This document shows, one piece after another, positions 10,062-42,921 of a stretch of DNA of 44,241 nt. How positions within the stretch are numbered: the first letter of the stretch is position 1; each line of letters begins with the position of its first letter. This stretch comes from an uncultured Acetobacteraceae bacterium (GTDB lineage: Bacteria > Pseudomonadota > Alphaproteobacteria > Acetobacterales > Acetobacteraceae), in NCBI GenBank assembly GCA_964252525.1, contig CAXUNZ010000005.1:1-44241 (forward strand). The letters run 5' to 3'. The notes beneath the pieces were generated by a model, which saw only the letters and a program-made list of their open reading frames with translations, did not search any database and had not been told where the DNA came from. A program made the translations under genes and the position numbers.

Positions 10062-10625
10062 TCAAGCAGCCCTGCGACTCAGAAGATCGATAATGTCCCG
10101 TGTCTTGCCGGTCTCTCCCATTTTCGGAAAAACCCAAGTCAGGCTATTGGCGTGAGCATCGGGGCTCAGGTCGGTCATTGCATCCGTGGCCAAGGTCACG
10201 TTGAAACCAAGCTCGGCGGCTTGGCGCGCGGTGGATTCGACACCCAGGCTTGTCGCGACTCCTGCGACCACGACCTGGGTAACGCCCTTGCCCCTGAGAT
10301 ATTCATCAAGGCCGGTGCCGGTGAAGGCGCCCCAGGTCGTTTTTGTCAGCGTGTGATCGCCCGGCTGCTGATTGAGCTCCGGCACGAGGTCTGCAAACCC
10401 GTCGGGACGCGCACCACCGCTGCCGCCCTGCTCCTTGCGACCCGCGGACCCGCTTTTGACGTTGACGAGCACGACGGGCAGGTGATGGGCGCGAAACGCG
10501 CCGGCCAGCTCACCGGCGCGCGCAATGACCTCGCTCAGAGGATGAACCGTGGGGTAGCCCAACATACCATTCTGCAAGTCTATGACGATGAGGGCGGCAA
10601 CTGGATCAAGGGCGGTGATAGGCAT
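10062..10625 (-). CDS. Isochorismatase-family hydrolase, YecD-like (paralogue 1)
   Basis: ALIVIDLQ, K..WGAF.GT.L..YLR, GVATSLGVESTARQA, DAMTD..H..S...FP.MGE. Confidence 0.9.
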   Translation of the reverse strand: MPITALDPVAALIVIDLQNGMLGYPTVHPLSEVIARAGELAGAFRAHHLPVVLVNVKSGSAGRKEQGGSGGARPDGFADLVPELNQQPGDHTLTKTTWGAFTGTGLDEYLRGKGVTQVVVAGVATSLGVESTARQAAELGFNVTLATDAMTDLSPDAHANSLTWVFPKMGETGKTRDIIDLLSRRAA

Positions 10626-10674
10626 CAATTTCCCCTATTGGATGTGCGCGTGGCGCAGTGGTGATATCGAGCGG

Positions 10675-15437: not shown

Positions 15438-16349
15438 TTATGCTGCCTGGATGTCTTCCGGACGCCCATAAAGTCGGACTGGATTTTCCACGAGGATCAT
15501 AGGTTGCGATTCCATATCGTCACTCCACCCCGTCAGCAGCTCTAGCAATGCATGGGTTTGCGGGACTTCATCGGCGTCAATTAATGCAACATGGGGCCAA
15601 TCACTGCCCCAGAGGACCTTGTTGGGACAACTCTCGATCAGAGCTTTCGCCAGAGGTTGCATCGCCTGCCACGATGGTCTGGCCATGCGGTACTTGCCTG
15701 AAAGCTTCACATAGCAATTGTCGTTGTTTAGCAGCTTCAGCAAAGCCTGGAACTGCGCGCCTGGCCCTTCGGCGGGATCGCAGCCTCCGAAATGATCAAT
15801 CACCAGGGGAACAGGAAGCCTAAGCAGCGAATCCAAATTCGCCACCAGTTCGTGCCCTTGCAGCGCGAATTGTATGTGCCAGCCGAGCTGCACAATGCGT
15901 TCAGCCAATGGTGCGGCCGCATGCAGCGGCACGCCACCGGGCAGCGCTTTGAGGATGAGCACGCCGCGAACGCCCGCGGCGTGCATCCAAGTCAATTCAG
16001 CATCTGACACATCGCGTGAAACGACCGCTACGCCGCGCAGGCGGCCCGGGCAGGCCTGCAGCGCGCTCAATAGAGCACTATTGTCGGTGCCATGCACGCT
16101 GACTTGGACCAGAACACCGCTTTGCAACCCGAGCGTATCAAGAAGCGCGAGGTAGGCGTGCAGCGTTGCTTCCGGCGGGTCGTAGCCGCGCGGACCCACC
16201 CAAGGAAATTTAGGTGGTGTTTCAATGACGTGTGCATGAGTGTCCCATACCCCGGCGGGACAACAATCCCCGAAGGCCTGCGTGGTGCGTGTGGGGGAGC
16301 GCAAGCAAACGGTGCGCCAGCCGAATTCTTCACGCGCGTTGCCGTTCAC
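15438..16349 (-). CDS. Amidohydrolase_2 family protein (LigI/lactonase-like)
   Basis: P.G.WDTHAHV, VLVQVSVHGTDNS, LRGVAVV, GWHIQ, VIDHFG, YVKLSG, LWGSDWPH. Confidence 0.88.
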   Translation of the reverse strand: MNGNAREEFGWRTVCLRSPTRTTQAFGDCCPAGVWDTHAHVIETPPKFPWVGPRGYDPPEATLHAYLALLDTLGLQSGVLVQVSVHGTDNSALLSALQACPGRLRGVAVVSRDVSDAELTWMHAAGVRGVLILKALPGGVPLHAAAPLAERIVQLGWHIQFALQGHELVANLDSLLRLPVPLVIDHFGGCDPAEGPGAQFQALLKLLNNDNCYVKLSGKYRMARPSWQAMQPLAKALIESCPNKVLWGSDWPHVALIDADEVPQTHALLELLTGWSDDMESQPMILVENPVRLYGRPEDIQAA

Positions 16350-18636: not shown

Positions 18637-19389
18637 TCAATGCGCCGCTTGCGCGATCTTGTCAGCGGCGCGCTGAGCCAAAGTCTTTGCGGCGATCCTG
18701 AGAAGGCCCTGCTCGTTGCCGAAAACAAAAAAATTGGCGCCGGCGGACAGCCACGGCGCCATCTCGGCCGTGTCCCCGATCACGATGGCGCCCAGCTTGC
18801 CGTTGGCGCGCGCCGCACCCAGCGCGTGTCGCGCACCCCGTAGCACGCTATCCGCCTCCATCGACATCAACCCCATCGCCAACGCGAGATCGGCCCGCCC
18901 CACGAGCAGGCCCGCCACACCCGGAACGGCGGCGATGGCGTGCGCGTTTTCTACGGCGGCGGAGCTTTCGATCTGACAAATGATTTCGGCACGGTCGCCG
19001 ATCTCAACCGCCTCCTCGATCATGGTCGCCCCATAGCGGCCGAAGCGGGCTGAGTTGGAAAAACCCCTCTCGCCGCCCCTAAAGCGGGCTCTGCGCACAA
19101 TGGCCAGCGCTTGCTCCGGCGTATCCACGTGCGGCACCACCAGACCGGTTGCGCCGAGATCGAGGGACTGCAGGATCGTTGCGGGCGCGTGGTCGCAAAT
19201 GCGAACGAAAAGCGGGAATTGGGCCGCCAGCCCGCCAAGGATCATCATATCCAGGCCCGCGCGGTCGAACGGGGCATGCTCGGCGTCGAGAATGCCGAAG
19301 TCGAGACCACTCAACGCGAGCACCTCGACGATCTGAGCAGAGCAGGTCTTGATGAATACGCCTGATCGGATCGTTCCGCGATCAGTCAA
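18637..19389 (-). CDS. HpcH/HpaI aldolase family protein
   Basis: G.DF.ILDAEH, VR, LDLGA.G.VVPHV, RG, CQIES, G..DLA; TTG start overlaps the stop of the upstream cupin-like gene. Confidence 0.9.
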   Translation of the reverse strand: MTDRGTIRSGVFIKTCSAQIVEVLALSGLDFGILDAEHAPFDRAGLDMMILGGLAAQFPLFVRICDHAPATILQSLDLGATGLVVPHVDTPEQALAIVRRARFRGGERGFSNSARFGRYGATMIEEAVEIGDRAEIICQIESSAAVENAHAIAAVPGVAGLLVGRADLALAMGLMSMEADSVLRGARHALGAARANGKLGAIVIGDTAEMAPWLSAGANFFVFGNEQGLLRIAAKTLAQRAADKIAQAAH

Positions 19390-20272
19390 GGCGGGGGAAC
19401 TCTACCACATAAACCTCGATGCCGTCGGCGCCGGACATCTCTCCCGCCTCGCCGCGCGGACTGTAAAGACAGGTGAGTTCGGGATAGCTGCGCCCCTGCA
19501 CGTGCAAGCCGGGCGTCAAGGTCCAGGCAATCTGCGGCCGATCGGGCCGTAGCGTATAGGTGCCGCCGTCCGACAACCGCACCATCGAGATGCGAACATC
19601 GCCATTCGGTCCGGGCCAGTCGTAAAACTGGCCGAGGTGTTTTAACTCGACGCCGCGACCGGCCTGGAAATAGGAGAACGCCTTCGGGTGCATCACGATC
19701 GGGGCTTCGTATGCGGCCGGCCCGATCACCAGCCGCTTGCCCGTGAGCATCTGGTAGCGCTCGTCATAAAGCGCGTCGACACTGTCGCGTTCCCGCGTCT
19801 CGCCTGTGACCGGATCGGTTTCGATGAAAATGCCCTTCTCGATCCGTCCCCGTGACTTCAGGCGGTTCATGGCCTCGGCGCGATGCTCTTCCCAGCGTTT
19901 GCCCCTTTGATGCTCGCCATTGAACCCGAACTGAACACCCAGGATGGTGCAGCTTTCCTTGTGCTGCGGCCCGTAATAGGCACCGTGAGGGAAGTAGCCG
20001 ATGTCACCTGCGTCAATCGATTGACCAAGGCCGAGATCGGAGGAACCCCTTTCCGTCATCTTGACCTGTGCGAAGGTGTGATGATGGCGAGGCGTCTGGA
20101 AGGCGTCCTCGCCCACATTGACGTGGTCACTCCTGACAAACCAGAAGTTGAAACCATCGGGCGCATCGTCCTCCAGCAGACGCTTGATGTTCTGCGCGCC
20201 GTCCCGCACCGCCAGACCGCTATTCTGATCCTTGTTCTGAATTTCTTCGGCGATAGAGATGATCATCCGCAT
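19382..20272 (-). CDS. Uncharacterised cupin-like protein (paralogue B)
   Basis: TPRHHHTFAQ and GDIGYFPHGAYYGPQ resemble cupin motifs 1 and 2; AAGGA RBS; close paralogue of 20346-21233. Confidence 0.75.
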   Translation of the reverse strand: MRMIISIAEEIQNKDQNSGLAVRDGAQNIKRLLEDDAPDGFNFWFVRSDHVNVGEDAFQTPRHHHTFAQVKMTERGSSDLGLGQSIDAGDIGYFPHGAYYGPQHKESCTILGVQFGFNGEHQRGKRWEEHRAEAMNRLKSRGRIEKGIFIETDPVTGETRERDSVDALYDERYQMLTGKRLVIGPAAYEAPIVMHPKAFSYFQAGRGVELKHLGQFYDWPGPNGDVRISMVRLSDGGTYTLRPDRPQIAWTLTPGLHVQGRSYPELTCLYSPRGEAGEMSGADGIEVYVVEFPRLD

Positions 20273-20345
20273 TTATCCTTTTATGCACTTGGCAGCCACA
20301 TGGGCTTTCCACGGCCGGGATCGCCAGCCAGTCGCGTCTCACCCG

Positions 20346-21233
20346 CTAATCCAGCCGGGGAAATTCTACGACGTAAACCTCGACGCCATTGGCGCCTGAT
20401 AAATGCCCGGCCTCGCCACGCGGGCTGTAGAGACAGGTGAGCCCGGGATACTCGCGCCCCTCGACCTGCAAACCGGGCGACAGGGTCCACGCGATGTGCG
20501 GACGATCAGACCGCAGCGTATAGTCGCCGCCTTCGGACAAGCGCACCATCGATATGCGCACGTCGCCGTTCGGCCCGGGCTGGTCATAGAACCGCCCGAG
20601 ATGCTTCACCTCTACCCCAGGCCCCGCGCGGAAATAGCTGAATGCCTTTGGGTGCATCACAATCGGTGCATCATACCCACGCGGGCCGAGCACAAGGCTC
20701 TTCCCCGTCAGCATCCTCAAACGTTCGTCATAGAGGGCCTCGACGCTGTCCCGCTCCGTCCGTTTGCCTGTCGCTGGATCGGTCTCGATGAACATGCCGT
20801 CCTCGATCGTCCCTCTAGTTTTCAGGCGCCTCAGCGCCTCCGCCCGGTGGTCCTCCCACGCCTTGCCTCTCTGGTGCTCTCCATTAAAGCCGAACTGAGC
20901 GGTAAAGGTCGTGCACGTATCTTTCGCCTGAGGTCCGTAATAGGCCGCGCGGGGGAAATACCCGATGTCGCCCGCCTCGATATCAACACCTGGAAAAAGG
21001 TTGGACGCGCCTTTTTCGGTGAACTTGATCTGTGCGAACGTATGGTTGTGCCGAGGCGTCTGGTGGGCGCGGTCTCCCGCGTTGGCGTGCTCGCCACGGC
21101 AGAACCAGAAATTGAACCCGTCCGGCGCATCATCATCCAGCAGCCGCTTCAACTTGAACGAGCCAGGCCGCACTGGTTCACCCATCATGGCGCTGTCCTG
21201 TGTTTGAACGTCTTCCGCTACCGCAATCCTCAT
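20346..21233 (-). CDS. Uncharacterised cupin-like protein (paralogue A)
   Basis: TPRHNHTFAQ and GDIGYFPRAAYYGPQ; GGGGAG RBS; shares blocks such as GPNGDVRISMVRLS and EVYVVEFPRLD with paralogue B. Confidence 0.75.
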   Translation of the reverse strand: MRIAVAEDVQTQDSAMMGEPVRPGSFKLKRLLDDDAPDGFNFWFCRGEHANAGDRAHQTPRHNHTFAQIKFTEKGASNLFPGVDIEAGDIGYFPRAAYYGPQAKDTCTTFTAQFGFNGEHQRGKAWEDHRAEALRRLKTRGTIEDGMFIETDPATGKRTERDSVEALYDERLRMLTGKSLVLGPRGYDAPIVMHPKAFSYFRAGPGVEVKHLGRFYDQPGPNGDVRISMVRLSEGGDYTLRSDRPHIAWTLSPGLQVEGREYPGLTCLYSPRGEAGHLSGANGVEVYVVEFPRLD

Positions 21234-21285
21234 GGGCGCTCCCCTGCACAGGAGTTCATTTTCTTATGGACAAAGGCCACGCCCT

Positions 21286-21314
21286 GCGCGCGGCAATTGG
21301 TCAATGCCGCGCGC
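21286..21314. repeat. GC-rich intergenic stem-loop
   Basis: GCGCGCGGCA-N9-TGCCGCGCGC between the IOR gene and cupin A; no clear U-tract. Confidence 0.45.
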
Positions 21315-21390
21315 GAGCTTCACTCGCCCGAGCGTCTATACGATCTGCAAACGCGCCAGACAACGGAAAACACAAGCGTGCATCCACAAT

Positions 21391-24300
21391 TCACGTATGT
21401 AAATCTTCACTAGCCGGGGTAGCATTGCCAGCATCGGGCATCCAAGGTACTACCGGGCCGTCCCTCCTGTCAGCCAGCCCCAGGTACCTAGCCAACGCAC
21501 GCGCTTGCTGTCTGCGTGCGAGCTCTATGCTGGCGTGCTTGACATGTCCGAAGCCCTTTATCGACTGCACGGCGCTTGCGAGTTCTACTGCCGCTGTATG
21601 GCTAGCTGGCGACAATGTCGGCAAAATCTCATCAACGACCAAGCTCACATAATTTTCGATCAGCCGCCGTTCCAACCGGCGCTCCATCGTGTAGCCGAAC
21701 GGGTCCAGGCGCGTCCCGCGCAGGCGCCGAAATTTCGCCAGAGCTACGAAGACCCGCAGCACCCAGGGACCGAATACTACCTTGCGCGGCAAACCACTCA
21801 CCGGATCGCGCCTGGCCAGCAGCGGCGGCGCAAGGTGGAACGCCAGCGTGAACGGGCCGTCGAAGCGTTCGCGCAGCGATGCGAGAAAACCCGTTTCGCT
21901 GTATAGCCGCGCGACTTCGTATTCGTCCTTGTAGGCCATCAGGCGGAACAGCGACTCGGCCACGGCCGAGGTCAGCGCCTCGCCGCGCGTACCAAGGCGG
22001 GCCTCGGCCTGCCGAACCCGCCGCACGATGTCAGCGTAGCGCTGCCCATAGGCGGAATCCTGATAGCCAGTCAGGAACACGATCCGCCTATCTATACGCT
22101 CATCAAGCGTCCATGAAAGGATGTGGTGGGGCAGCCGTTCGCCCCCGGCCGCCGCCATTACAGCCGGCAGGTCAAGGGCTGCTCGACGGCCCCACGTGAA
22201 CGCATCCCGGTTGAGGGCGATGGACACGCCGTTCAGTTCGATGGCCCGCTGCAGCGCCTCAAGCGAGACCGGCAGCAGGCCGCGCTGCCAGGCGAAGCCG
22301 ACCATGAAGAGGTTTGCACCGACCGCATCGCCAACCAGTTTGGTGGCGAGCTGTGTGGCATCGCAAAAATCGATGCATCCAGGCCGGACCGCTGCGGCAA
22401 GCGCCGGCTTCAGGAGCGCATTTGGCACGGCAAAGCCCGGATCGCGCGTGAACAATCCAGTTGCCGTCTCATGGTCGTTGGCAATGATGTGACCCGCCGT
22501 GCGCGAGACGCGGCCAAGATGTTCAGGTGTAGCACCCACGACGAGGTCGCAGGCAAGGAGCAGGTCGGCAGCCTCGGCGCTGATCTTGGCTGCAGCAATT
22601 TCGCCAGGCTCGGCGCCGATTTGGATGTGGCTAACCACCGCCCCGCCTTTTTGCGCAAGCCCCGTCATGTCCATCACGCGGATCGCTTTGCCGTCCATGT
22701 GCGCCGCCATGCCGATGATCGCGCCGATGGTCACAACCCCTGTGCCGCCTATGCCGGCGACGATAAGCGAGAAGATGCCCTCGGGCGCCGCAGCCCGGGG
22801 TTCGGGCAATGCTGCCCTTGAATCGGCGGCACGCACGGCCTTGCGCGGTGTGCCATTCAGGACGGTGACGAAGCTGGGGCAAAACCCATTGATGCAGGAG
22901 CGGTCCTTATTGCACGTCGAGAGATCGACGGCGCGCTTGCGGCCGAACTCCGTCTCGACCGGCACCACAGCCAGGCAATTGGACTGTCGCGAACAATCGC
23001 CGCAGCCCTCGCAGACAAGATCGTTGATAACGATGGCCAGCTTCGGATCGGCGGCCTCACCGCGCTTGCGCAGGCGGCGAAGTTCGGTAGCACAGGCCTG
23101 GTCGAAGATGAGGACGGAAACGCCCTCGACCTCGCGCAACTCCCGCTGCACCTGATCGAGGTCCTCGCGCGCACGCAGCCCAACGCCGGCAGGCAGCTTG
23201 CCCTCGCGGCGGGCAGACATATCGTCGGTCACAACAACCACCCGCGCCACGCCCTCGGCCATGACCTGCGCCACGAGGCGTTCGAGCGAAAGCTCGCCAT
23301 CCAGGGCTTGGCCGCCAGTCATGGCAACCGCACCATTGAACAGGATCTTATAGGTGACGTTCACCTTCGCTGCGATCGCCGCACGGATTGCCAATGACCC
23401 GGAATGAAAATAGGTGCCGTCGCCGATGTTCTGGAACATATGCCGGGTCGTGGAGAACGGCGCCAGCCCAAGCCAGTTGGCGCCCTCACCTCCCATCTGC
23501 GTGAAACCGCCAGTCTGGCGTTCCATCGGCAGCACCAGGTAATGGCAACCGATTCCCGCAAAGGCGTGGCTGCCTTCAGGCACCTTCGTCGAGCCGTTAT
23601 GCGGACAGCCGGGGCAGAAATGCGGCGGCCTGACCGCATGTGACTGGAGTTGCGCCATGCGCTCCACGCGCCCTTGCATCACCGCGAGCCTCGCCCGCAC
23701 CGCCTCGCTGCCGGTCGTCTCGACGATGCGCCTGCCAAGCTCCACGGCGATGGTGTTCGCCCCAAGATCACCATTGGAGGGAAACAACCAGCCGCCGGCC
23801 GCATCGCGCTTGCCGAGCACCGTCGGCGGATCCTGGGTGCCATAGAGATGCGCGCGAAGCTGGTCCTCGACCAGCCCGCGCTTCTCCTCAACAACGACGA
23901 TTTCGCGCAACCCCCGCGCAAATTCGCGCAAGCCTTGCGGTTCGAGCGGCCACGGCATGGCGACCTTATAGAGGCTGATGCCAAGCGCGGCCGCCTGCGC
24001 CGCATCGATGCCCAGATCGGCGAGCGCTTGCAACGTGTCGGGATGGGCCTTGCCGACCGTGACGATGCCGAGGCGAGCGCCCACCTCGCCAAGAACGATA
24101 TGATCGAGCCGGTTCGCCCGGGCGAAGGCCAGCGCCGCCGGCAGCTTGAAGCGATGGAGCCGTTCCTCCTGCGCAAGCGGCGTGTCGGGCCAGCGCAACC
24201 ATAAGCCGTCAGCCGGCAGAGGATCGTAATCCGGCGCGGCAAGGTCGATTATCGGATCGGCGAAGATGCTCTCGCCGCTATCCATGATTTCCGTCACGAC

Positions 24301-24897
24301 CTTAAGCCCGACCCACAGCCCCGCGTAGCGCGACATTTCCCACCCAATCAGGCCGAACTGCATCTGCTCGGCAATCGATGCGGGTGCCAGCACCGGGATC
24401 ATGGCATCGGCCAACGCGTATTCGGATTGATGCGCCGTGGTCGATGACTTGCATGTGTGGTCATCGCCGGCGATCACCAGCACGCCGCCCTGGCGCGCCG
24501 TGCCGGCCAGGTTGCCATGCTTGAAAGCGTCCCCGCTACGATCGACGCCGGGACCCTTACCGTACCACGCCGCCGACACGCCATCGTAATGGCCAGCGCC
24601 GAAGGTGCCGAGCTGCTGCGTGCCCCAAACGGCGGTGGCTGCAAGGTCCTCGTTAATCGCCGGCCTGGCTATGATGTCCCCACCCAGGAATTTCGCCGCG
24701 CGCTCCATCGTCTGGTCCAGCCCACCAAGCGGCGAACCGCGATACCCTGTCACATAGACGGCCGTGTGGCATCCTTGCGCCGTCCTGCGCCGCTTCTCCA
24801 ACTGCATCATGCGGACGAGCGACTGGGTCCCGTTCAGGTAATAGGGCCTCCCCTCAAACAAGTAACGATCGTTCAGGGTCGCCTCGAGATGCTGCAT
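21391..24897 (-). CDS. Indolepyruvate:ferredoxin oxidoreductase family protein (fused alpha-beta type)
   Basis: GYRGSPLGG, NEDLAATAVWG, WYGKGPGVDRSGD, FCPGCPH, GIGCH, GDGTYFHSG, CEGCGDC...SNC, CNKD.SC..GFCP, GIGGTGV, GLAQKGG, LMAYKDEYEVARL. Start moved to MQHLEATL at 24897. Confidence 0.95.
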   Translation of the reverse strand: MQHLEATLNDRYLFEGRPYYLNGTQSLVRMMQLEKRRRTAQGCHTAVYVTGYRGSPLGGLDQTMERAAKFLGGDIIARPAINEDLAATAVWGTQQLGTFGAGHYDGVSAAWYGKGPGVDRSGDAFKHGNLAGTARQGGVLVIAGDDHTCKSSTTAHQSEYALADAMIPVLAPASIAEQMQFGLIGWEMSRYAGLWVGLKVVTEIMDSGESIFADPIIDLAAPDYDPLPADGLWLRWPDTPLAQEERLHRFKLPAALAFARANRLDHIVLGEVGARLGIVTVGKAHPDTLQALADLGIDAAQAAALGISLYKVAMPWPLEPQGLREFARGLREIVVVEEKRGLVEDQLRAHLYGTQDPPTVLGKRDAAGGWLFPSNGDLGANTIAVELGRRIVETTGSEAVRARLAVMQGRVERMAQLQSHAVRPPHFCPGCPHNGSTKVPEGSHAFAGIGCHYLVLPMERQTGGFTQMGGEGANWLGLAPFSTTRHMFQNIGDGTYFHSGSLAIRAAIAAKVNVTYKILFNGAVAMTGGQALDGELSLERLVAQVMAEGVARVVVVTDDMSARREGKLPAGVGLRAREDLDQVQRELREVEGVSVLIFDQACATELRRLRKRGEAADPKLAIVINDLVCEGCGDCSRQSNCLAVVPVETEFGRKRAVDLSTCNKDRSCINGFCPSFVTVLNGTPRKAVRAADSRAALPEPRAAAPEGIFSLIVAGIGGTGVVTIGAIIGMAAHMDGKAIRVMDMTGLAQKGGAVVSHIQIGAEPGEIAAAKISAEAADLLLACDLVVGATPEHLGRVSRTAGHIIANDHETATGLFTRDPGFAVPNALLKPALAAAVRPGCIDFCDATQLATKLVGDAVGANLFMVGFAWQRGLLPVSLEALQRAIELNGVSIALNRDAFTWGRRAALDLPAVMAAAGGERLPHHILSWTLDERIDRRIVFLTGYQDSAYGQRYADIVRRVRQAEARLGTRGEALTSAVAESLFRLMAYKDEYEVARLYSETGFLASLRERFDGPFTLAFHLAPPLLARRDPVSGLPRKVVFGPWVLRVFVALAKFRRLRGTRLDPFGYTMERRLERRLIENYVSLVVDEILPTLSPASHTAAVELASAVQSIKGFGHVKHASIELARRQQARALARYLGLADRRDGPVVPWMPDAGNATPASEDLHT

Positions 24898-24910
24898 TGG
24901 CCGGCGCGCC

Positions 24911-25945
24911 TCAGGCGAGGCCGCTGGCGGCGACAGCTTCGCACAAGCCGTGTTCGGGCGCGCTGGCGGCGGAAAGGGCGTCAAGATGCCGTTCGTCGAG
25001 GACCAGGCCGACCGCGCCCAGGATTTCATCCAATTCCGGCACGCTGTTCACGGCCGCGATGGGTGCGGTAATGCCGGGCTGGGCCATCACCCAGGCGAGC
25101 GCCACCTGGGCGGGCAGCGCGCGGAGTTCATCGGCGACCTCTTCCAACGCCGCGAGGATGCGCAAGCCCCGTTTGCTCGCGTAGGCTTTCAGCCTGGCCT
25201 CCCAGGGGCTGGCCCGATAATCCTCGCCGGTCCGGTACTTGCCCGTGAGGAAACCCCTTGCCAGCGAGGCGTAACAAATCACCCCTACATCGTTTTCAAG
25301 GCTGACGTCGCGCAACGCGCCTTCGAATGCATCCCGGTCACAGAGGTTATAGAGCGGCTGCAGGCTCTGGTAGCGGGGCAACATCTGCCGATCACTGACA
25401 TGCAGTGCGTCGGCAAGAGCCGTGGCGTCGTAATTTGACGCACCAATGACGCGCACCTTGCCGGATCCAATCAGGCGGCCATAAGCCTCGAGCGTGTGTT
25501 CCACAGGCGTATCGGGGTCGTTCATGTGCGACTGATAGAGGTCGATGTAATCGGTCTGCAGACGCCGCAATGAGTGTTCGACGGCCTGCACGATGTGGCC
25601 AGGCGAAAGGTCGCCGCCCCAGCCCCGGCCGACACCGCCCCGGTCATGCGCACGCGGCCGCGCACCCACCTTGGTTGCAAGCACGATCCGATCACGGCAG
25701 CCGCGCGCCTTCAACCATGCGCCGATGACCGTCTCGGACTCCCCGCCGACATGGCCCGCGATCCAACTCGAATAATTATCGGACGTATCGACCGCGTTCA
25801 ATCCCGCATCCAGGAACGCATCGAGGATCCGAAATGACGTGTGCTGGTCTGCTGTCCAGCCGAACACGTTGCCGCCAAGCACCAGCGGCGCAATGCGCAA
25901 CTCCGAGCGGCCGATCCTTCGCCGTTCCATCTGCGGGGACTTCAC
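24911..25945 (-). CDS. Aldo/keto reductase (paralogue 2)
   Basis: RRIGRS..LVLGGNVFGW, VDTSDNY, ATKVG, SLRRLQTDYIDLYQSH, IGASN; GTGA overlap with the upstream isochorismatase. Confidence 0.93.
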   Translation of the reverse strand: MKSPQMERRRIGRSELRIAPLVLGGNVFGWTADQHTSFRILDAFLDAGLNAVDTSDNYSSWIAGHVGGESETVIGAWLKARGCRDRIVLATKVGARPRAHDRGGVGRGWGGDLSPGHIVQAVEHSLRRLQTDYIDLYQSHMNDPDTPVEHTLEAYGRLIGSGKVRVIGASNYDATALADALHVSDRQMLPRYQSLQPLYNLCDRDAFEGALRDVSLENDVGVICYASLARGFLTGKYRTGEDYRASPWEARLKAYASKRGLRILAALEEVADELRALPAQVALAWVMAQPGITAPIAAVNSVPELDEILGAVGLVLDERHLDALSAASAPEHGLCEAVAASGLA

Positions 25946-26514
25946 CCACCCGATCCCGCAAGGAGGCCAATGATCTCGCGCGTCATGCCGGTTTCGCCGA
26001 GCCTGGGAAATATGCGCGTGGCGCTGTTGACGTGCGCCTCAGCACTCACATCCGACATGGCATCGAGCGCCAAGGTGACGTTGAGGCCGCAGGAATAGGC
26101 CTCGCGCGCGGTCGATTCGACACCGATGCTGGTGGCGCAGCCCGCAACCACGACCTGCGTCACGCCACGTTCCCTGAGCAGCTTCTCCAGGCCAGTGCCC
26201 GAAAAAGCGCCCCAGTTCCTCTTTTCAATGACGAGGTCTCCTGGCCGGGGGGCCAAATCGTCGATAAAATCCGCATCGCTGGCAGAGCGCTGCGCGCTTG
26301 CCGCGCTGCGCACCTGTTCGGTGCGGCCTGCCGGCCTGCCCACGACCTTGACAAGCACCACCAGATGCCCGTGGTGGCGGAACGCATCGGCCAGCGCGCC
26401 GGTATTTCTGACCACCTCATCCATCGGATGTGGTTCGCGCGGCGTGGCCAAGCTGGCGTTCTGCAGGTCGATGACGATCAGCGCGGTTCGCGGGTCCAAT
26501 TTAGTGACGGGCAT
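25942..26514 (-). CDS. Isochorismatase-family hydrolase, YecD-like (paralogue 2)
   Basis: ALIVIDLQ, EKRNWGAFSGT.L, GCATSIGVESTAR, DAMSD, IFPRLGE. Confidence 0.9.
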   Translation of the reverse strand: MPVTKLDPRTALIVIDLQNASLATPREPHPMDEVVRNTGALADAFRHHGHLVVLVKVVGRPAGRTEQVRSAASAQRSASDADFIDDLAPRPGDLVIEKRNWGAFSGTGLEKLLRERGVTQVVVAGCATSIGVESTAREAYSCGLNVTLALDAMSDVSAEAHVNSATRIFPRLGETGMTREIIGLLAGSGG

Positions 26515-26568
26515 CTCATCGCTCCAGGCGCCTTGATGGACATGTTTTCCGCAAGCCTGCGCGGCCTT

Positions 26569-26608
26569 TCACGTCGGCACGGAGGTTCGGGCCGCCGTGC
26601 CGGCGTGA
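26569..26608. repeat. Intergenic stem-loop (14-bp stem)
   Basis: TCACGTCGGCACGG-N12-CCGTGCCGGCGTGA between cupin C and isochorismatase 2. Confidence 0.5.
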
Positions 26609-26642
26609 TCCCAGTGTCCGCTTCTGGCGAACCGCAGCCGCT

Positions 26643-27542
26643 CTACTCGGCCGCCTGCATGATTGAAACCGGCCGTTGCATCAAGTCCATGCTCGGCAAG
26701 CCGAGAAGCAGGATGTCGGACACCTCGTCGGCGGTGAAAATCCCCTGCTCCCCGTCTTCGAGATACAATGTGGTGTATTGCCGGAACGGCTCGTTCTCCA
26801 CCGACCCGTTACCGGAAAGAACGATATAGACGCCTCGCCCCTTAGCGCTAAACGTCGAGTTCGGATCAAGTTTGAAGCGGGCAGCGCGGAATTGGCAGCT
26901 TGTGAATGTTCCCAACGCCTTCTCGTACACACCAGCCGTCCCTGCCACCGGCATCCAAGGGTAAGCGTTCGTATCGATGAGGATCGGATCGGCATATTGC
27001 GGCTTGGGATAGTCCAAGGGCCGCTTGCGGACATGCTCCCACTGCACCTCGTAGGCATCCTGGATCTTCTCTCCGTCACCGCCGGCAGTGCGGCGGAACA
27101 TCCCGTCTTCGAACACGCCGATGTTCAAAGCCTTGATCTCCGCGTGCGCCTGGACGATCTGGTCGCGGCTGACATAGCCCGACCCGCTCGGGCCGCCGAA
27201 TTGCGCGATGATTACGGTGCCCACGACGTTCTCCTGCGGGCCGTAATAAGCGCCCTCCGGAAAATAGCCCAGCATGCCGGCGGTTAGCTTGCCCGTCGTG
27301 AAATCGGCGCAGCCCTCGATCATATAGCGCCACTGGTCGAAATTGTGGTGATGGCGCGGCGTCGAGAACTCGCCTTCCTCAACGCTGCTAATACCGACAT
27401 AGAAATTGTCCGACCTGTTCGGATCCCGGCCCAGAACCTTGTCGTTCAAGAGGACGCGGGATTTATGTCCTGAACCGCCGCGGCCTGCCCGTTTGTCGCT
27501 CCTGTTTTCGAAGCTCGGATCGCTACCTTGCATGACCTTCAT
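26643..27542 (-). CDS. Uncharacterised cupin-like protein (paralogue C, more distant)
   Basis: TPRHHHNFDQWRY, GMLGYFPEGAYYGPQ, QFGG.SG, G.FEDG.F, Y..PI; GGGAGG RBS; same motif order as paralogues A and B. Confidence 0.75.
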   Translation of the reverse strand: MKVMQGSDPSFENRSDKRAGRGGSGHKSRVLLNDKVLGRDPNRSDNFYVGISSVEEGEFSTPRHHHNFDQWRYMIEGCADFTTGKLTAGMLGYFPEGAYYGPQENVVGTVIIAQFGGPSGSGYVSRDQIVQAHAEIKALNIGVFEDGMFRRTAGGDGEKIQDAYEVQWEHVRKRPLDYPKPQYADPILIDTNAYPWMPVAGTAGVYEKALGTFTSCQFRAARFKLDPNSTFSAKGRGVYIVLSGNGSVENEPFRQYTTLYLEDGEQGIFTADEVSDILLLGLPSMDLMQRPVSIMQAAE

Positions 27543-27732: not shown

Positions 27733-28305
27733 TCATGTTGATGCAAAAGTCTCGTGCAGCAACGCCACGATCTGCGCGGTGGTGCCCGTTTCCCCCAGGC
27801 GAGGAAAGATCCGCATTATGCTGTGGCTATGGTTCTCCGACGTCCCGTCGGTCATCGCATCTGTGGCCAAAGTCACGTTGAAACCGGCTTCGTAGGCCTG
27901 CCTGGCACTCGATTCGACGCCGTTGCTTGTGGAAATGCCGGCAAAAACGACCTGGGTGATCTGTTTCGACCTGAGATAGTCTTCGAGCCCGGTGTTCGAA
28001 AAAGCGCCTCGCGCCCGCTTGGTCACCCTGTAATCGTGCGGGTGCTCGCCCAAGCCGGGGAGCAGCTCCATCGCATCGGGCGCGAGGGCGGCATTGCCGC
28101 GGGAGGGATGCTCCGTTCGCCCCGGCGAACCGCCTGCGGCGACGACGAACACAACCGCCAAGTCGTGGCGGTGAAATGCGCCGGTCAAGGCATTGACGTG
28201 CGCCACGACCTCGCCCAGCGGATGGACCATAGGGTAGGCCGCAATCCCCTTCTGCATGTCGATGACGACCAGCGCAGTCCTTGGATCGATTACGGTTAGG
28301 GGCAC
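27733..28305 (-). CDS. Isochorismatase-family hydrolase, YecD-like (paralogue 3)
   Basis: ALVVIDMQ, TKRARGAFSNT.L, GISTSNGVESSAR, DAMTD, IFPRLGE; GTG start behind AAGGA. Confidence 0.9.
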   Translation of the reverse strand: MPLTVIDPRTALVVIDMQKGIAAYPMVHPLGEVVAHVNALTGAFHRHDLAVVFVVAAGGSPGRTEHPSRGNAALAPDAMELLPGLGEHPHDYRVTKRARGAFSNTGLEDYLRSKQITQVVFAGISTSNGVESSARQAYEAGFNVTLATDAMTDGTSENHSHSIMRIFPRLGETGTTAQIVALLHETFAST

Positions 28306-36315: not shown

Positions 36316-37977
36316 ATGCACGCAGACCCGTCCAAGCTCATGAAAGTGCACCAGGCAGTTGCGCGCGCGCTCGCCGATAATGGGGTGGACACGATATTCG
36401 GCGTCATGGGTGACGCCAACATGTTCGCCATGCACAGCTTCGTGCATGATTGCGGTGGCATTTTCGTATCGGCATCTCACGAAGTCGGCGCAGCCCTGAT
36501 GGCGCTTGGCTACGCCACCCTCTCGGGCAAGGCCGGTGTATGTTCGGTCACGCACGGTCCCGGCTTGACAAATACCGTTACGGCACTTGTCGAGGGCGTG
36601 AAAGGATCGGTGCCGATGGTCATCGTTTGCGGCGACACGGCGCTCCTCGATCGGGAAAACAACCAGAACGTCGCTCAACGCGATATCGTCATCGCAACTG
36701 GAGCAGGATTCGAACAGCTCCGCTCACCGCAAACAGCGAGCCAGGACGTGGCCATGGCGCTGCGTAGGGCAATGACCGAACGCCGTCCAATTGCACTGAA
36801 CATGCCCAGCGAGCTGGACTGGAGCCCTGTTGACTACCAGCCCGTGATCGTTCGCCTTCCGGTGGATCGGGCTGTGGTGTTGGCCAGCGAAGACTTGGAC
36901 AACGCGATCGGCATGATGGCCGCGGCGCGGCGCCCAGTCATCCTCGCCGGGCGCGGCGCGGCTTGCGCCGCGGCCAAATGTGCCATTCTGAAACTCGCCC
37001 GGCGCATCGAGGCGCCGCTCACCACCACGCTGAAAGCCAAGGATCTCTTTGATGGCGAAGATTACAACCTTGGCATTTGCGGCACTGTCAGCACGCAAGC
37101 GGCTGTCGAGACGATCATGGAGAGCGACTGCCTGATTTCATTTGGCGCCAGCCTGAATTACCGCACCACTTCGAAAGGCGCATTCCTCAGAGGAAAACGC
37201 GTCATCCAGGTCAATCTCGAGCAGTCGGAAATTGGCAAGAACGTCCAACCCGATGTCGGCCTGGTTGGAGATCCGGCGGCCGTGGCGGACCTCATGACCC
37301 ATTGGCTGGATGAGGCGGAGATCCCACCATCGAGTTGGTACTCGGACGAGTTGAAGGAGCGGATTGCGTCGGCGCGTCCGGACATCGACCAACAGGACGA
37401 TTATGACAACGGCACGGTCAATTACCTGAGTACCCTGCTGCGCATTGGCGCGTTCCTGCCGCAAGACCGCATACTCGTGACCGATGGCGGCCGGTTCATG
37501 CTACGAACATGGCCGCTGCTGCGCGCTTCACCTGGGCGTTCGTTCATCGCGCCGGTCAATTTTGGATCGATCGGGCTCGGTCTATCGCACGCCATTGGCG
37601 CAGCCTACGCCGGGCGCGGGCGTCCCGTCGTGCTCGTTACGGGAGACGGCGGATTCATGAATGGCGGTCTGGCCGAATTCAACACCGCGGTGAGAGGCAA
37701 ATTGGACCTGATCGTAATCATATGCAACGACAATGCCTACGGCGCCGAAGTCGTCAAGTTCAACGACAGATATCCCGGTGACAAGATGGACCCGGGAATG
37801 ATTACGTTTGATTGGCCGGATTTCGCACCAGTTGCTATCGCCTTGGGTGGCAATGGCGTCACGATCAGGTCTGCAAACGACCTTGTTTCGGCCGAACAGG
37901 CGATAAGCCAACGCAACGGTCCGTTGCTAATCGACATCAAGGTTGATCCCTACCGGATGGCCATGTCACTGGGCTGA
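36316..37977 (+). CDS. ThDP-dependent enzyme, ALS-like 'GDANM' subgroup (paralogue 1)
   Basis: GVDTIFGVMGDANMF, SHE, VTHGPG.TN, GSIGLG, TGDGGFM..NDNAYGAE. Confidence 0.9.
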   Translation: MHADPSKLMKVHQAVARALADNGVDTIFGVMGDANMFAMHSFVHDCGGIFVSASHEVGAALMALGYATLSGKAGVCSVTHGPGLTNTVTALVEGVKGSVPMVIVCGDTALLDRENNQNVAQRDIVIATGAGFEQLRSPQTASQDVAMALRRAMTERRPIALNMPSELDWSPVDYQPVIVRLPVDRAVVLASEDLDNAIGMMAAARRPVILAGRGAACAAAKCAILKLARRIEAPLTTTLKAKDLFDGEDYNLGICGTVSTQAAVETIMESDCLISFGASLNYRTTSKGAFLRGKRVIQVNLEQSEIGKNVQPDVGLVGDPAAVADLMTHWLDEAEIPPSSWYSDELKERIASARPDIDQQDDYDNGTVNYLSTLLRIGAFLPQDRILVTDGGRFMLRTWPLLRASPGRSFIAPVNFGSIGLGLSHAIGAAYAGRGRPVVLVTGDGGFMNGGLAEFNTAVRGKLDLIVIICNDNAYGAEVVKFNDRYPGDKMDPGMITFDWPDFAPVAIALGGNGVTIRSANDLVSAEQAISQRNGPLLIDIKVDPYRMAMSLG

Positions 37978-39308: not shown

Positions 39309-40727
39309 TCAGGAAGATTGCAGCTCGTCGATCTGAAACCCCAGGCGGCCGGCCCGCATGCGGATGCGCAACCCACGATGCCTCGCCAGGTATCGGATGA
39401 AAACGATTGCCGCAGCTAGACCCGACGCGGCAGCGATGCTCATGGCCCAACGCGGCCCGAACCTGTCTGCAACCCATCCGATGACCGGCGCGCCGATCGG
39501 CGTCCCGCCGCTGACCATCGCACTGCGGAAGGTGATGACACGGCCCCGCATCTGTGGCGCCGTGGACAGTTGCATCAAGCTGTTCGTAGCGTTTGTGAAC
39601 GTCAGCGCAGACGAACCAACGACAATGAGTGCCAAGCCAAACAGCCAGAAATTCGGCATGAGTGCCGCACACCCGCACGCCAACCCGAAGAACGCGGCGC
39701 CCGACAGCAGCTGCCCGACCTGAGGTCTGTCCCGCCTGGCGGAGAATAGGGCTCCGGCAACCGTTCCGATGGCGACGAAAGACATCAGGAGCCCATACCT
39801 GCTCGCCCCGGCATGGAACACGGTCACTGACATCGTGGATATGAAGATCGGAATGTTCAATCCGAACGTACCGATCAGGAAAAGCATGAGCAGGATTGCC
39901 TTGAGGTCCGGCCGCGCCCGGACGTAACGCACGCCCGCGGCAAAACCTGCCTGGATGCCGCTGTCTTTGTTCTGACGGTGTAATTCACCCACGCGAAGGC
40001 AGTATAGGGAGCACAAGACGGCGGCGAAGGAGATGGCGTTGACCAGGAACGCCCATCCGCAGCCCGCAGCGCCGATCATAGTGCCTGCTATGGCCGGGCC
40101 AACCATTCGCGCGACGTTGAACGATGTTGAATTGAGCGCAATTGCGTTGGGCAGATCGGCGTCACCAACCAGTTCGGAGACAAAGGTTTGGCGAAGCGGC
40201 GTGTCGAACGCCGTAACACAGCCGAGCAATGCCGCCGCGACGAAGACGTGCCATATCGTGACGAAGCCGCCGACCGTCAACACGCCCAATGCCAGGGCCA
40301 ATATTCCCAGTGCGGCCTGGGTTGCCATCAGCAGCTTTCGCTTATCGAAATTATCGGCCGCAGAACCGACCAACGGCAGGAAGACGAATTGCGGGGCAAA
40401 CTGCAAGGCCATGACCCACCCCAAGGTGGTCGCGTTGTGATGGGTCAATACGGTGAGAACCAGCCAATCCTGCGCGATGCGCTGCATCCACGTGCCGACA
40501 TTCGATACGATCGCACCTCCGGCCCAGACGCGGTAGTTGAAGACCTTGAGTGAGCGGAAGGCGCCTGCGTCGGGTTTCAAGTCCGGACTGCCGGCGATGT
40601 CGACAAATTGGCTGCGCGGATTTTTCGACTTAATTGATGACGGGGGCGCTGGGGGGGGGGCAGGCACTGCTCCCCCACTCCTTTCTGAGTGTGTTTTTGT
40701 GTGGGTTGGCAGGCGTTCAGGATTCAC
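39309..40727 (-). CDS. MFS transporter (DHA3/MFS_3-like)
   Basis: FRSL..FNYR.W.GG.IVSNVGTWMQR.AQDWLVL, AFD.P.RQ.FV.ELV, NA.ALNS.SFN.AR..GPA.AG, MRGRV. The true start may be about 40580. Confidence 0.9.
   Translation of the reverse strand: MNPERLPTHTKTHSERSGGAVPAPPPAPPSSIKSKNPRSQFVDIAGSPDLKPDAGAFRSLKVFNYRVWAGGAIVSNVGTWMQRIAQDWLVLTVLTHHNATTLGWVMALQFAPQFVFLPLVGSAADNFDKRKLLMATQAALGILALALGVLTVGGFVTIWHVFVAAALLGCVTAFDTPLRQTFVSELVGDADLPNAIALNSTSFNVARMVGPAIAGTMIGAAGCGWAFLVNAISFAAVLCSLYCLRVGELHRQNKDSGIQAGFAAGVRYVRARPDLKAILLMLFLIGTFGLNIPIFISTMSVTVFHAGASRYGLLMSFVAIGTVAGALFSARRDRPQVGQLLSGAAFFGLACGCAALMPNFWLFGLALIVVGSSALTFTNATNSLMQLSTAPQMRGRVITFRSAMVSGGTPIGAPVIGWVADRFGPRWAMSIAAASGLAAAIVFIRYLARHRGLRIRMRAGRLGFQIDELQSS
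40641..40680. repeat. REP-like hairpin unit with G10 tract
   Basis: CGGGGGCGCTGGGGGGGGGGCAGGCACTGCTCCCCCACTC; core CAGGCACTGCTCC is shared with 8921 and 27606. Confidence 0.55.
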
Positions 40728-41169
40728 CCAGTCGTTTAATCAACGCGATGGCCGCCTGGAGGGTCTGCTGTTCATCCGGACTGAGCTTTGCAATCGCCGT
40801 CGAGAGCCATTCCCGCTTTGCGTCGCTGCGCCGTCGTCTTGCCTCGATCCCCTCGGGCGTCAACGCAAACAGAATTTGCCGTCCATCTGTGGGGTGGGGA
40901 CGGCGCTGAACAAATCCATCCTGCTCTAGGCTGGCAAGAATCGTGCCCATGGATTGAGGTTTCATCGACTCCGCCCGTGCGAGATCGGAAGTTGTCATCC
41001 ACTGTCCCTTCTCAAGCCGTGCCAATGTTCCAAGCTGAGAAAGGTTGAGTTCGGTGGGCGTTGCCGCCGAGCGGAGCCGTCTTCGAAGCTGTCCGATCGC
41101 AAGCGAAAGATCGGTCACGATGGTTTGCAGTGTATCCGCTGCATCGGTGGTCGTCGTATGGTCCGTCAT
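40717..41169 (-). CDS. MarR-family transcriptional regulator
   Basis: L.LSQL..LARL, T.SDLARAE.MKPQSM..ILA.LE..G.V.R.PHPTDGRQ...ALT..G; 150 aa. Confidence 0.93.
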   Translation of the reverse strand: MTDHTTTTDAADTLQTIVTDLSLAIGQLRRRLRSAATPTELNLSQLGTLARLEKGQWMTTSDLARAESMKPQSMGTILASLEQDGFVQRRPHPTDGRQILFALTPEGIEARRRRSDAKREWLSTAIAKLSPDEQQTLQAAIALIKRLGES

Positions 41170-42871: not shown

Positions 42872-42895
42872 TACTAAAACTCCCAGGTTTGTCGC

Positions 42896-42921
42896 AATGC
42901 TTGAAGTGACAGGCAAGCATT
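42896..42921. promoter_or_regulatory. Palindrome upstream of the ThDP2-marR-MFS operon (candidate operator)
   Basis: AATGCTTG-N10-CAAGCATT, about 25 bp upstream of the start codon. Confidence 0.45.

What the first reader, a model, noticed from the sequence alone, without database searches (positions are those of the whole stretch)
19382..27542. Three paralogous uncharacterised cupin-like proteins with an unusual His-His-Gln-Tyr metal-site signature
Seen: three ~296-aa ORFs (19382-20272, 20346-21233, 26643-27542) all carry TPRHxHxFxQ followed by GxxGYFPxxAYYGPQ and QFG. A and B are a tandem pair with long identical peptide blocks but many synonymous differences, consistent with purifying selection. 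Knowledge: cupin motif 1 is HxH-x3/4-E and motif 2 is G-x5-PxG-x2-H. Here Glu is replaced by Gln and the motif-2 His aligns to Tyr in all three copies. Inference: a 2-His/1-Gln/1-Tyr metalloenzyme family (dioxygenase, lyase or isomerase), perhaps a bicupin with a degenerate second barrel. These are the best candidates for the pathway's signature step; B overlaps the HpcH aldolase start.
Basis: partly seen in the sequence, partly recalled or inferred. Interest (0 to 1): 0.75.

Follow-up and report, generated by a model that had tools for sequence, protein, structure and literature searches.

The report
Tyrosine-site bicupin enzyme family
These three genes belong to a large, unnamed bacterial protein family with a predicted two-barrel cupin fold in which a tyrosine stands where cupins normally have their last metal-binding histidine; they are likely metal enzymes that reshape small organic acids during the breakdown of an unknown carbon source, which would be a new kind of metal site in a well-studied fold.

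Summary
All three ORFs lie on the minus strand and carry PRHxHxFxQ, YYGPQ and QFG. The tandem pair is 71% identical with dN/dS 0.13; the third copy is only 27-28% identical and belongs to an older sister subfamily. Both models (pLDDT 92-95) are bicupins, with no solved match above 17% identity in the wide fold search. His/His/Gln/Tyr is a family trait: among 149 top representatives of 755 clusters, Tyr is 149/149 and Gln 146/147. The second barrel has no conserved His. Gln is not new (BacB has it); Tyr at the motif-2 His position is. In both models it lies in register to pair across the sheet with the first His. Relatives sit beside HpcH aldolases (8/8), FAH hydrolases (28/29), or transporters alone. 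Best guess (0.42): a redox-neutral hydratase, dehydratase or tautomerase acting on a metal-bound 2-oxy-acid, with Tyr as ligand and base. Main rival (0.30): a gentisate-dioxygenase-like C-C cleaving oxygenase. Metal, geometry and substrate are untested. I found no characterised member. 'Signature step' of this cluster is not shown.

The parts
19382..20272 (-). Bicupin A (P0001, 296 aa; likely start Met3 at 20266), AB subfamily; site residues H63, H65, Q69, K71, Y100, Q114
20346..21233 (-). Bicupin B (P0002, 295 aa), AB subfamily; site residues H62, H64, Q68, K70, Y99, Q113; modelled at pLDDT 95.5
26643..27542 (-). Bicupin C (P0003, 299 aa), C subfamily; site residues R21, R63, H64, H66, Q70, R72, Y100, Q114, D162; modelled at pLDDT 92.6; Pfam Cupin_7 31.7 bits
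19931..20086 (-). Codons H63 to Q114 of copy A (Tyr100 at 19973-19975): the putative metal site
   Evidence: computed
20895..21050 (-). Codons H62 to Q113 of copy B (Tyr99 at 20937-20939): the putative metal site
   Evidence: computed
27201..27353 (-). Codons H64 to Q114 of copy C (Tyr100 at 27243-27245): the putative metal site
   Evidence: computed
18637..19389 (-). HpcH/HpaI-family aldolase, TTG start overlapping the end of copy A by 8 nt; likely next enzyme
15438..16349 (-). Amidohydrolase related to 2-pyrone-4,6-dicarboxylate lactonase (best PDB match E 1.5e-39)
21391..24897 (-). Fused indolepyruvate:ferredoxin oxidoreductase-family protein directly upstream of B and A
25942..26514 (-). 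YecD-like isochorismatase-family protein just downstream of copy C (others at 10062-10628 and 27733-28305); recurs in 11 of 20 AB loci
36316..37977 (+). Thiamine-diphosphate enzyme of the GDxNM type (second copy 41213-42916, minus strand); recurs in 9 of 20 AB loci; no solved relative at E<=1e-45
40717..41169 (-). MarR regulator with an MFS transporter (39309-40727); a MarR lies within two genes of the cupin in 12 of 20 AB loci

Best explanation
The three genes encode members of a large unnamed protein family with a predicted bicupin fold and invariant His, His, Gln and Tyr in the first barrel, which likely bind one metal ion and likely catalyse a redox-neutral step (adding or removing water, or tautomerising or ring-opening) on a small organic acid. 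Shown: the family, the invariant residues, the lack of conserved His in the second barrel, the gene neighbours. Predicted: the fold, and the first His and the Tyr as cross-strand neighbours. Inferred: the substrate chelates the metal through its carboxylate and a 2-oxo or 2-hydroxy group; Arg/Lys72 and Arg21 hold the carboxylate; the tyrosinate supplies the negative charge that Glu supplies in 3-His-1-Glu cupins, and is displaced to act as the base; Gln114 and Asp162 position substrate or water. The product would be a 4-hydroxy- or 4-oxo-2-oxo acid that an HpcH aldolase or FAH hydrolase splits to release pyruvate. The two old paralogue types kept together would handle related substrates or successive steps. 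The substrate in this window is not identified.
For: Fold: two models, pLDDT 95.5 and 92.6, match bicupins at Z 20.1 and 20.3 (3o14, rmsd 3.0-3.1, 202-209 aligned). Site: in 479 unique full-length members H64 478, H66 479, Q70 479, Y100 478, Q114 479, D162 474, R21 473, R/K72 472; in the best 149 representatives of the word-free HMMER search H/H 147 of 147 with residues, Q 146 of 147, Y 149 of 149, never His. Tyr aligns with the motif-2 His of 3ebr, 2vqa and gentisate dioxygenases. In both models the first His and the Tyr are lone beta-bridge residues in the antiparallel register of the adjoining strands (62+99=59+102; 64+100=61+103). HxHxxxQ is the BacB spacing. Tyr is a metal-binding catalytic base in the cupin lyase DddU. 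A cupin hydratase, LumY, works between a pyrone lactonase and an aldolase; the window has a PDC-lactonase relative and an HpcH aldolase. Subfamily E has HpcH within two genes in 8 of 8 loci; in Rhizobium 3841 it lies among sugar ABC, SDR, lactonase and tetronate genes, a setting that needs a dehydratase more than a ring-cleaving oxygenase. Many members stand alone beside transporters: FAH or HpcH is near in only 1 of 20 soil-metagenome loci of 8 kb or more, which suits a one-step conversion.
Against: No activity, metal or side-chain geometry was measured; bridge partners are inferred from DSSP letters, not read from coordinates. Motif 1 resembles gentisate dioxygenases, including Arg at His+6 (hhalign probability 53%, E 1.3e-4, 41 columns), and subfamily D has FAH within two genes in 28 of 29 loci with a P450 in 27 of 29, the usual layout of a ring-cleavage operon. 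Only 9 of 20 AB loci have HpcH or a citrate-lyase-type lyase and none has FAH. MmgE/PrpD, present in 4 of 8 E loci, could be the dehydratase instead. Loci within a subfamily are kin and not independent. LumY is a 16-kDa protein, so a precedent and not a homologue. DddU's Tyr is in motif 1, a different position.
Confidence: 0.42

Rival explanations
1. They are O2-dependent C-C cleaving dioxygenases that work like gentisate/salicylate 1,2-dioxygenase or like diketone-cleaving cupins. Iron held by His, His, Gln and Tyr binds an o-hydroxy acid or enolate, and O2 opens it to a 2,4-dioxo or 2-oxo acid for FAH, HpcH or thiamine enzymes.
For: Motif 1 HRHxxxxxR aligns to gentisate dioxygenases and Tyr100 to their third His. 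SDO also has its site only in the N-terminal barrel and uses Arg127 and Arg83 for the carboxylate. FAH is the next gene on the same strand in 29 subfamily-D loci, in clusters with P450, ferredoxin and reductase and no other ring-cleaving enzyme among the recurring genes. The window has no other oxygenase among its called genes. The named hosts include no obligate anaerobe (from my own knowledge of the taxa).
Against: No NCBIfam hit at E<=0.1, so no gentisate dioxygenase model matches. The third His of the Fe(II) site is never present (0 of 479; 0 of 149). SDO ranks only 12th-14th in the wide fold searches, below DUF861 and ChrR-like bicupins. Solitary copies lack downstream enzymes. The sugar-acid setting of subfamily E fits poorly.
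Confidence: 0.3
2. They are metal enzymes of another class, for example C-N or C-O hydrolases, lyases or decarboxylases, like the DUF861 / ureidoglycine aminohydrolase or oxalate decarboxylase bicupins.
For: DUF861 proteins and ureidoglycine aminohydrolase are among the best fold matches (Z 17-19); oxalate decarboxylase tops Foldseek. Some loci have NMT1-type ABC importers or Asp/Glu-racemase-family neighbours.
Against: Identity to these is 8-16% and the Z-scores are tied with many other bicupins; no ligand set matches. The recurring neighbours are aldolases, FAH hydrolases and acid dehydrogenases rather than nitrogen-handling genes.
Confidence: 0.18
3. They are not enzymes but ligand-binding or sensing proteins that work with the adjacent regulator, with Tyr having removed the catalytic metal site.
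For: The best fold match is annotated as an anti-sigma ChrR-like protein; a MarR lies within two genes in 12 of 20 AB loci; GntR or LysR genes flank others.
Against: Nine polar residues clustered at the barrel are nearly invariant over 20-50% identity. No DNA-binding domain or sigma factor is attached or adjacent in the window. The genes sit inside enzyme operons, overlapping or abutting HpcH or FAH genes.
Confidence: 0.07

Closest known systems
ChrR-like bicupin Maqu_0586 (PDB 3o14; Pfam Cupin_7 PF12973)
   Same: Best fold match for both models (Z 20.1 and 20.3) and best sequence-profile match in the PDB (E 7.2e-8, mainly the second barrel); P0003 passes the Cupin_7 cut-off.
   Different: 15-17% identity; about 70 residues shorter; relatives of that type keep His in motif 2 (HAPHS, HTPSS); the helical insert with Asp162 is absent. 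Its own function is uncharacterised as far as the PDB title shows.
Gentisate / salicylate 1,2-dioxygenases (TIGR02272; PDB 2phd, 2d40, 3bu7)
   Same: Bicupin with the site in the N-terminal barrel only; motif 1 HRH with Arg six residues after the second His; FAH neighbours in subfamily D.
   Different: Third His replaced by Tyr, Ala replaced by Gln; no NCBIfam hit; 8-14% structural identity; copies A and B have Lys for the Arg.
BacB / AerE bicupins (3-His-1-Gln; PDB 3h7j, 5zbf)
   Same: HxHxxxQ ligand spacing; fold Z 16.3-17.0.
   Different: BacB has a third His and a metal in both barrels; this family has Tyr and no conserved His in barrel 2. That these enzymes are isomerases is recalled, not from a call.
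Cupin DMSP lyases (DddU, DddQ, DddK)
   Same: A Tyr takes part in metal binding and acts as the catalytic base (DddU His146, Glu150, Tyr152, His185).
   Different: Their Tyr is two residues after the Glu in motif 1, where this family has Arg/Lys; they keep Glu and the motif-2 His.
LumY dienedioate hydratase of lumichrome catabolism
   Same: A cupin adding water between a pyrone lactonase and an aldolase, the order suggested by the window's neighbours.
   Different: 16 kDa against about 33 kDa here; its sequence was not seen, so homology was not tested.

Membership tests
Cupin superfamily | Double-stranded beta-helix barrel | tested here: met
   Two predicted models match bicupins at Z about 20, Foldseek E about 1e-10 to 4e-12
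Cupin superfamily | Motif 1 HxH | tested here: met
   H64 478 of 479, H66 479 of 479
Cupin superfamily (canonical 3-His-1-Glu site) | Motif 1 Glu | tested here: not met
   Gln in 479 of 479; a known variant (BacB)
Cupin superfamily (canonical 3-His-1-Glu site) | Motif 2 His in G-x5-P-x-G-x2-H | tested here: not met
   G89 468, P95 466, G97 414 of 479 kept, but Tyr 478 and Cys 1 at the His position; Tyr 149 of 149
Cupin superfamily | Bound mononuclear metal | not testable with these tools
   No coordinates or ligand model were obtained
Gentisate/salicylate 1,2-dioxygenases | Match to TIGR02272 | tested here: not met
   No NCBIfam family at E<=0.1 for any of the three
Gentisate/salicylate 1,2-dioxygenases | 3-His Fe(II) site | tested here: not met
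   Third His aligns to Tyr100
Gentisate/salicylate 1,2-dioxygenases | Carboxylate-binding Arg six residues after the second His | tested here: met
   Arg 419, Lys 53 of 479; Arg in copy C, Lys in A and B; aligned to the GDO Arg
Gentisate/salicylate 1,2-dioxygenases | O2-dependent ring cleavage | not testable with these tools
   Needs an assay
ChrR-like Cupin_7 (PF12973) | Score above the Pfam cut-off | tested here: inconclusive
   P0003 31.7 bits against 27; P0001 and P0002 no Pfam hit at E<=0.01; 29-49% of members of the nearest Atlas clusters carry it
ChrR anti-sigma factors | Adjacent ECF sigma factor | tested here: not met
   None among the window's called genes
BacB-type 3-His-1-Gln bicupins | HxHxxxQ in motif 1 | tested here: met
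BacB-type 3-His-1-Gln bicupins | Third His, and a metal site in both barrels | tested here: not met
   Tyr in barrel 1; no His conserved in half or more of members in barrel 2, none at all there in P0003
Cupin DMSP lyases | Glu ligand with catalytic Tyr two residues later | tested here: not met
   Gln, then Arg/Lys

The most novel reading that the evidence does not exclude
The family holds a tyrosinate-ligated Fe(III) centre inside a cupin barrel and cleaves C-C bonds with O2 by activating the substrate, as intradiol dioxygenases do in an unrelated fold. This would be a new class of ring- or enediol-cleaving oxygenase with hundreds of uncharacterised subfamilies in soil, peat and marine bacteria, reached by moving the anionic ligand from motif 1 (Glu to Gln) to motif 2 (His to Tyr).
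Probability: 0.13. Interest if true: 0.82.

Novelty: new variant of a known kind. Interest (0 to 1): 0.52.

Why it matters
The motif-2 histidine is among the most constant features of metal-binding cupins. A family of at least 755 clusters at 50% identity that has replaced it with Tyr, and Glu with Gln, would add a new ligand set to the cupin repertoire and give a natural test of how ligand charge and position steer chemistry. The family has no model of its own in Pfam or NCBIfam and no solved structure, and it is embedded in at least five different catabolic gene settings in Alphaproteobacteria, Burkholderiales and Actinomycetota, so one solved reaction would open several unknown degradation pathways. 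Cultured strains carry it (Rhizobium johnstonii 3841 RL_RS30550, Cupriavidus necator NH9 BJN34_RS36110, Paraburkholderia phymatum BURPHP1_1443), so it can be tested directly. It remains a new enzyme family in a known fold, not a new kind of system.

Tried and rejected
NCBIfam gave no family for the three proteins; PDB sequence searches gave nothing below E 7e-8 and nothing characterised. Source names in 10 clusters were 'hypothetical', generic cupin labels, or one automatic 'Gentisate 1,2-dioxygenase'. ESM Atlas neighbours were hypothetical proteins. Nine literature searches listed no paper on this family or on a 2-His-1-Gln-1-Tyr cupin; the library lacks most subscription journals, and the same exact-phrase search also missed known 2-His-1-Gln enzymes, so this is weak evidence. 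Guessed old Rhizobium locus tags were not found. The P. phymatum homologue was expressed at a low level and not induced by Mimosa root exudate (fold change 1.13, padj 0.85), which gave no substrate clue. No RNA holder was listed for the window. Complex prediction with iron was not available, so oligomer state and metal contacts are untested. Promoter and terminator scans were at chance level. Earlier findings of this scan: none. Rejected: an artefact or shadow ORF (family, selection and fold say otherwise); a recent triplication (C is a distant subfamily); an obligate AB-C heterodimer (single copies occur in 10 of 21 AB loci, counting L012-L021, and genome G443 has two AB copies and no C); riboflavin catabolism (LumY is half the size). 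Considered without support: ascorbate or reductone cleavage to threonate, gamma-pyrone (maltol, kojate, chelidonate) opening, and lignin acyloin chemistry.
Full report
Observation. The three ORFs are real and lie on the minus strand at the stated coordinates. Each has PRHxHxFxQ, then GYFPxxAYYGPQ, then QFG. The first motif occurs exactly three times in the six frames of the 3.72-Mb assembly and tblastn finds no other copy. Copies A (19382-20272) and B (20346-21233) are 71% identical; 101 of 210 identical residues differ synonymously and dN/dS is about 0.13. The second barrel is the more conserved part between them (83% against 61%). Copy C (26643-27542) is 27-28% identical to both. The gene overlapping the HpcH start is A, by 8 nt and with a TTG start.

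Setting. The window is a whole contig with GC 0.612 against 0.646 for the genome, third lowest of 31 contigs over 20 kb, with transposase fragments near both ends and at about 13.5 kb. None of 4 genomes of the same genus has the family; of 36 in the same family one has a strong match and two have weak partial ones. It looks like an acquired catabolic island. It carries an IclR and a MarR regulator, three thiamine enzymes, acyl-CoA dehydrogenase, ligase, hydratases and 3-hydroxyacyl-CoA dehydrogenase, two class III CoA-transferases, a MaoC-type dehydratase, an HMG-CoA-lyase-like enzyme, a succinyl-CoA-ligase-like pair, a fused 2-oxoacid:ferredoxin oxidoreductase, two aldo-keto reductases, three YecD-like proteins, a PDC-lactonase relative, HpcH, a TonB receptor and MFS transporters. 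No oxygenase is among the called genes.

Fold. AlphaFold models of B and C have mean pLDDT 95.5 and 92.6. Both match bicupins: best is 3o14 (Z 20.1, rmsd 3.0, 202 aligned, 15% identity; Z 20.3, rmsd 3.1, 209 aligned, 17%), then DUF861 proteins, Npun_F5605, ureidoglycine aminohydrolase, HEPD/MPnS, AerE, BacB, pirins and gentisate/salicylate dioxygenases at Z 15-19. Foldseek ranks oxalate decarboxylase first. These scores fix the fold and not the function. A helical insert of about 60 residues lies between the barrels.

Family. A word-free HMMER search with a 69-sequence profile found 1042 clusters (50% identity) at E<=0.001, 755 at 1e-10 and 384 at 1e-30. Eight of 400 other genomes of the class have one copy each. 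In 479 unique full-length members (of 503 collected; 24 dropped as short, long or duplicate), in P0003 numbering: R21 473, R63 474, H64 478, H66 479, Q70 479, R/K72 472, Y100 478, Q114 479, D162 474. Part of that set came from pattern scans that include the motif, so I recounted: 359 proteins from the homologue searches give H64 358, H66 359, Q70 359, Y100 358, and the best 149 of the 150 listed representatives (one frameshifted fusion dropped; 20-51% identical to C) give H/H 147 of 147 with residues, Gln 146 of 147, Tyr 149 of 149, Q114 145 of 149. The weaker 892 hits were not inspected, so members with His may exist further out. The second barrel has no conserved His.

Is Tyr at the ligand position? 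It aligns with the motif-2 His of 3ebr (E 0.0023), of 2vqa (E 0.68) and of 14 gentisate dioxygenases (hhalign probability 53%). In both models the first His and the Tyr are isolated beta-bridge residues whose numbers sum to the same register as the adjoining strand pair (62+99=59+102 in B; 64+100=61+103 in C). Cross-strand partners point to the same face, so the Tyr likely points into the barrel beside the His. The partner assignment is inferred from DSSP letters; I had no coordinates. Whether the Tyr binds the metal or sits in the second shell of a 2-His-1-Gln site is open; I put about 65% on ligand.

What is unusual. Gln is not: BacB uses His50, His52, Gln56, His91 (PMC2797259, passages). 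Tyr as ligand and base is known in DddU, but in motif 1 (PMC11497337, passages). Two cupin reviews, of which I saw only keyword passages and one section, showed no Tyr at the motif-2 position (PMC3765361; PMC4019311). Inference: Glu to Gln together with His to tyrosinate keeps the net ligand charge at minus one.

Subfamilies and neighbours. A tree of 120 members separates AB, C, D, E and smaller groups; A and B sit in one clade, C far away. AB and C types travel together: 15 of 46 distinct contig lengths of 9 kb or more among AB hits recur among C hits (read by hand), and the two are within 2 kb in L001, L002, L004 and L007. Counting loci of 8 kb or more: AB (20 of 21 loci) has MarR within two genes in 12, YecD-like in 11, the GDxNM thiamine enzyme in 9, HpcH or a citrate-lyase-type lyase in 9, FAH in none. 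D (29 loci, mostly marine Alphaproteobacteria and Burkholderiales) has FAH within two genes in 28 and a P450 in 27, with ferredoxin, reductase, SDR, flavin ene-reductase, EthD and an NMT1 ABC importer. E (8 loci; Rhizobium, Ensifer, Sinorhizobium, Cupriavidus, Paraburkholderia) has HpcH in 8, FAH in 3, MmgE/PrpD in 4; in R. johnstonii 3841 the HpcH operon runs on through SDR, aldehyde dehydrogenase, tartrate and L-threonate dehydrogenases and 3-oxo-tetronate genes, with sugar ABC and lactonase genes on the other side. C-like soil metagenome members (20 of 80 loci long enough) are mostly alone beside transporters; FAH or HpcH is near in 1. Two others abut a TcuA-like flavoprotein. Loci within a group are kin, and three pairs of AB loci share a genome, so these counts show a handful of independent settings, not dozens.

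Mechanism. The same site serves all settings, so one chemistry on varied substrates is likely. The common thread is small carboxylic acids and downstream enzymes that, from established knowledge of HpcH and FAH families, release pyruvate from 4-hydroxy- or 4-oxo-2-oxo acids. The Arg six residues after the second His matches the carboxylate-binding Arg of gentisate/salicylate dioxygenases. I therefore infer a 2-oxy-acid chelated at the metal. Two chemistries fit. Redox-neutral hydration, dehydration or tautomerisation (0.42) fits the sugar-acid setting of E, the solitary copies, the BacB-like Gln, the Tyr base precedent, and the lactonase-cupin-aldolase precedent of LumW/LumY/LumX (PMC12746152, abstract, section 15 and a supplement search). 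O2-dependent cleavage (0.30) fits the P450-cupin-FAH layout of D, the likeness to gentisate dioxygenase motif 1 and the lack of another oxygenase in the window. Other metal chemistry (0.18) and a non-catalytic sensor (0.07) remain. The island's substrate could not be named.

Known or new. It is a cupin, but fails the defining ligand tests for gentisate dioxygenases, BacB-type bicupins, DMSP lyases and ChrR. No specific Pfam or NCBIfam model, solved relative or informative name was found, and nine literature searches listed nothing on it, within a library that lacks most subscription journals. The one expression record found, P. phymatum BURPHP1_1443 matched by coordinates in the supplement of PMC5789663 (rows only), is labelled 'conserved protein of unknown function' and was not induced by Mimosa exudate. 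Recalled and not from calls: intradiol 2-His-2-Tyr Fe(III) sites, MPnS 2-His-1-Gln, BacB/AerE as isomerases, HpcH and FAH substrates, the oxygen needs of the named taxa. Verdict: a real, large, uncharacterised bicupin family with a distinctive Tyr-for-His site; new variant of a known kind; interest 0.52.

Noticed in passing
L038:8586-12666 and 28 similar loci (subfamily D): A conserved uncharacterised cluster in marine Alphaproteobacteria, Gammaproteobacteria and Burkholderiales: P450, ferredoxin, reductase, SDR, this cupin, FAH hydrolase, flavin ene-reductase, hydroxyacid dehydrogenase, EthD proteins, IclR and an NMT1-type ABC importer. Substrate unknown.
   Followed up: partly
L063:2909-24849 (R. 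johnstonii 3841 pRL11, RL_RS30505-30605): An apparently unassigned catabolic cluster joining sugar ABC, SDRs, lactonase, MmgE/PrpD, the cupin and HpcH to tartrate, L-threonate and 3-oxo-tetronate genes; suggests a C7 2-keto-3-deoxy acid split into pyruvate and a C4 unit (inference).
   Followed up: partly
window:36316-37977 and 41213-42916: Two copies of a thiamine-diphosphate enzyme with a GDxNM motif, below every NCBIfam cut-off and with no solved relative at E<=1e-45; a recurring partner of the AB cupins in Alphaproteobacteria and Actinomycetota.
   Followed up: partly
window:10062-10628, 25942-26514, 27733-28305: Three YecD-like isochorismatase-family proteins; the motif reads TSIGVES, TSNGVES or TSLGVES with Gly where cysteine hydrolases have the catalytic Cys (role of the Cys recalled).
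   Followed up: partly
window:9042-10628 and 24911-26514: The aldo-keto reductase plus YecD pair occurs twice, as do the GDxNM thiamine enzyme, the MFS importer type and the enoyl-CoA hydratase: the island looks built from repeated modules.
   Followed up: no
L153:732-12115: A family member lies between a TcuA-like flavoprotein and two glutathione S-transferases whose N-termini resemble the lignin beta-etherase pair BaeA/BaeB (resemblance recalled, not tested), with SDRs, a P450 and a GMC oxidoreductase nearby; a gentisate dioxygenase lies about 10 kb away in G061.
   Followed up: partly
window:31163-32371: A 402-aa double hot-dog (MaoC-type) dehydratase with no solved relative at E<=1e-4, beside a pair of class III CoA-transferases.
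   Followed up: partly
window:13406-14120, 869-2357, 43172-44159: Transposase fragments; a 372-bp stretch at about 1.9-2.2 kb is 95% identical to one at about 13.7-14.1 kb.
   Followed up: partly
L006:10965-11528 and L010:10923-12073: A glutaredoxin-like or DinB-fold protein follows the AB cupin directly in two distant hosts; DinB-fold thiol-dependent isomerases follow ring cleavage in some pathways (recalled).
   Followed up: no
P0368: A 469-aa database protein that is a frameshifted run-through of an AB gene into a C gene, probably a sequencing error, but it shows the two types adjacent.
   Followed up: no
L154:4579-5355: A 258-aa protein with a PPHFHxxDQFQV motif and no Pfam hit at 1e-6, in the same ABC-importer cluster as a family member; possibly another HxHxxxQ cupin family.
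   Followed up: no
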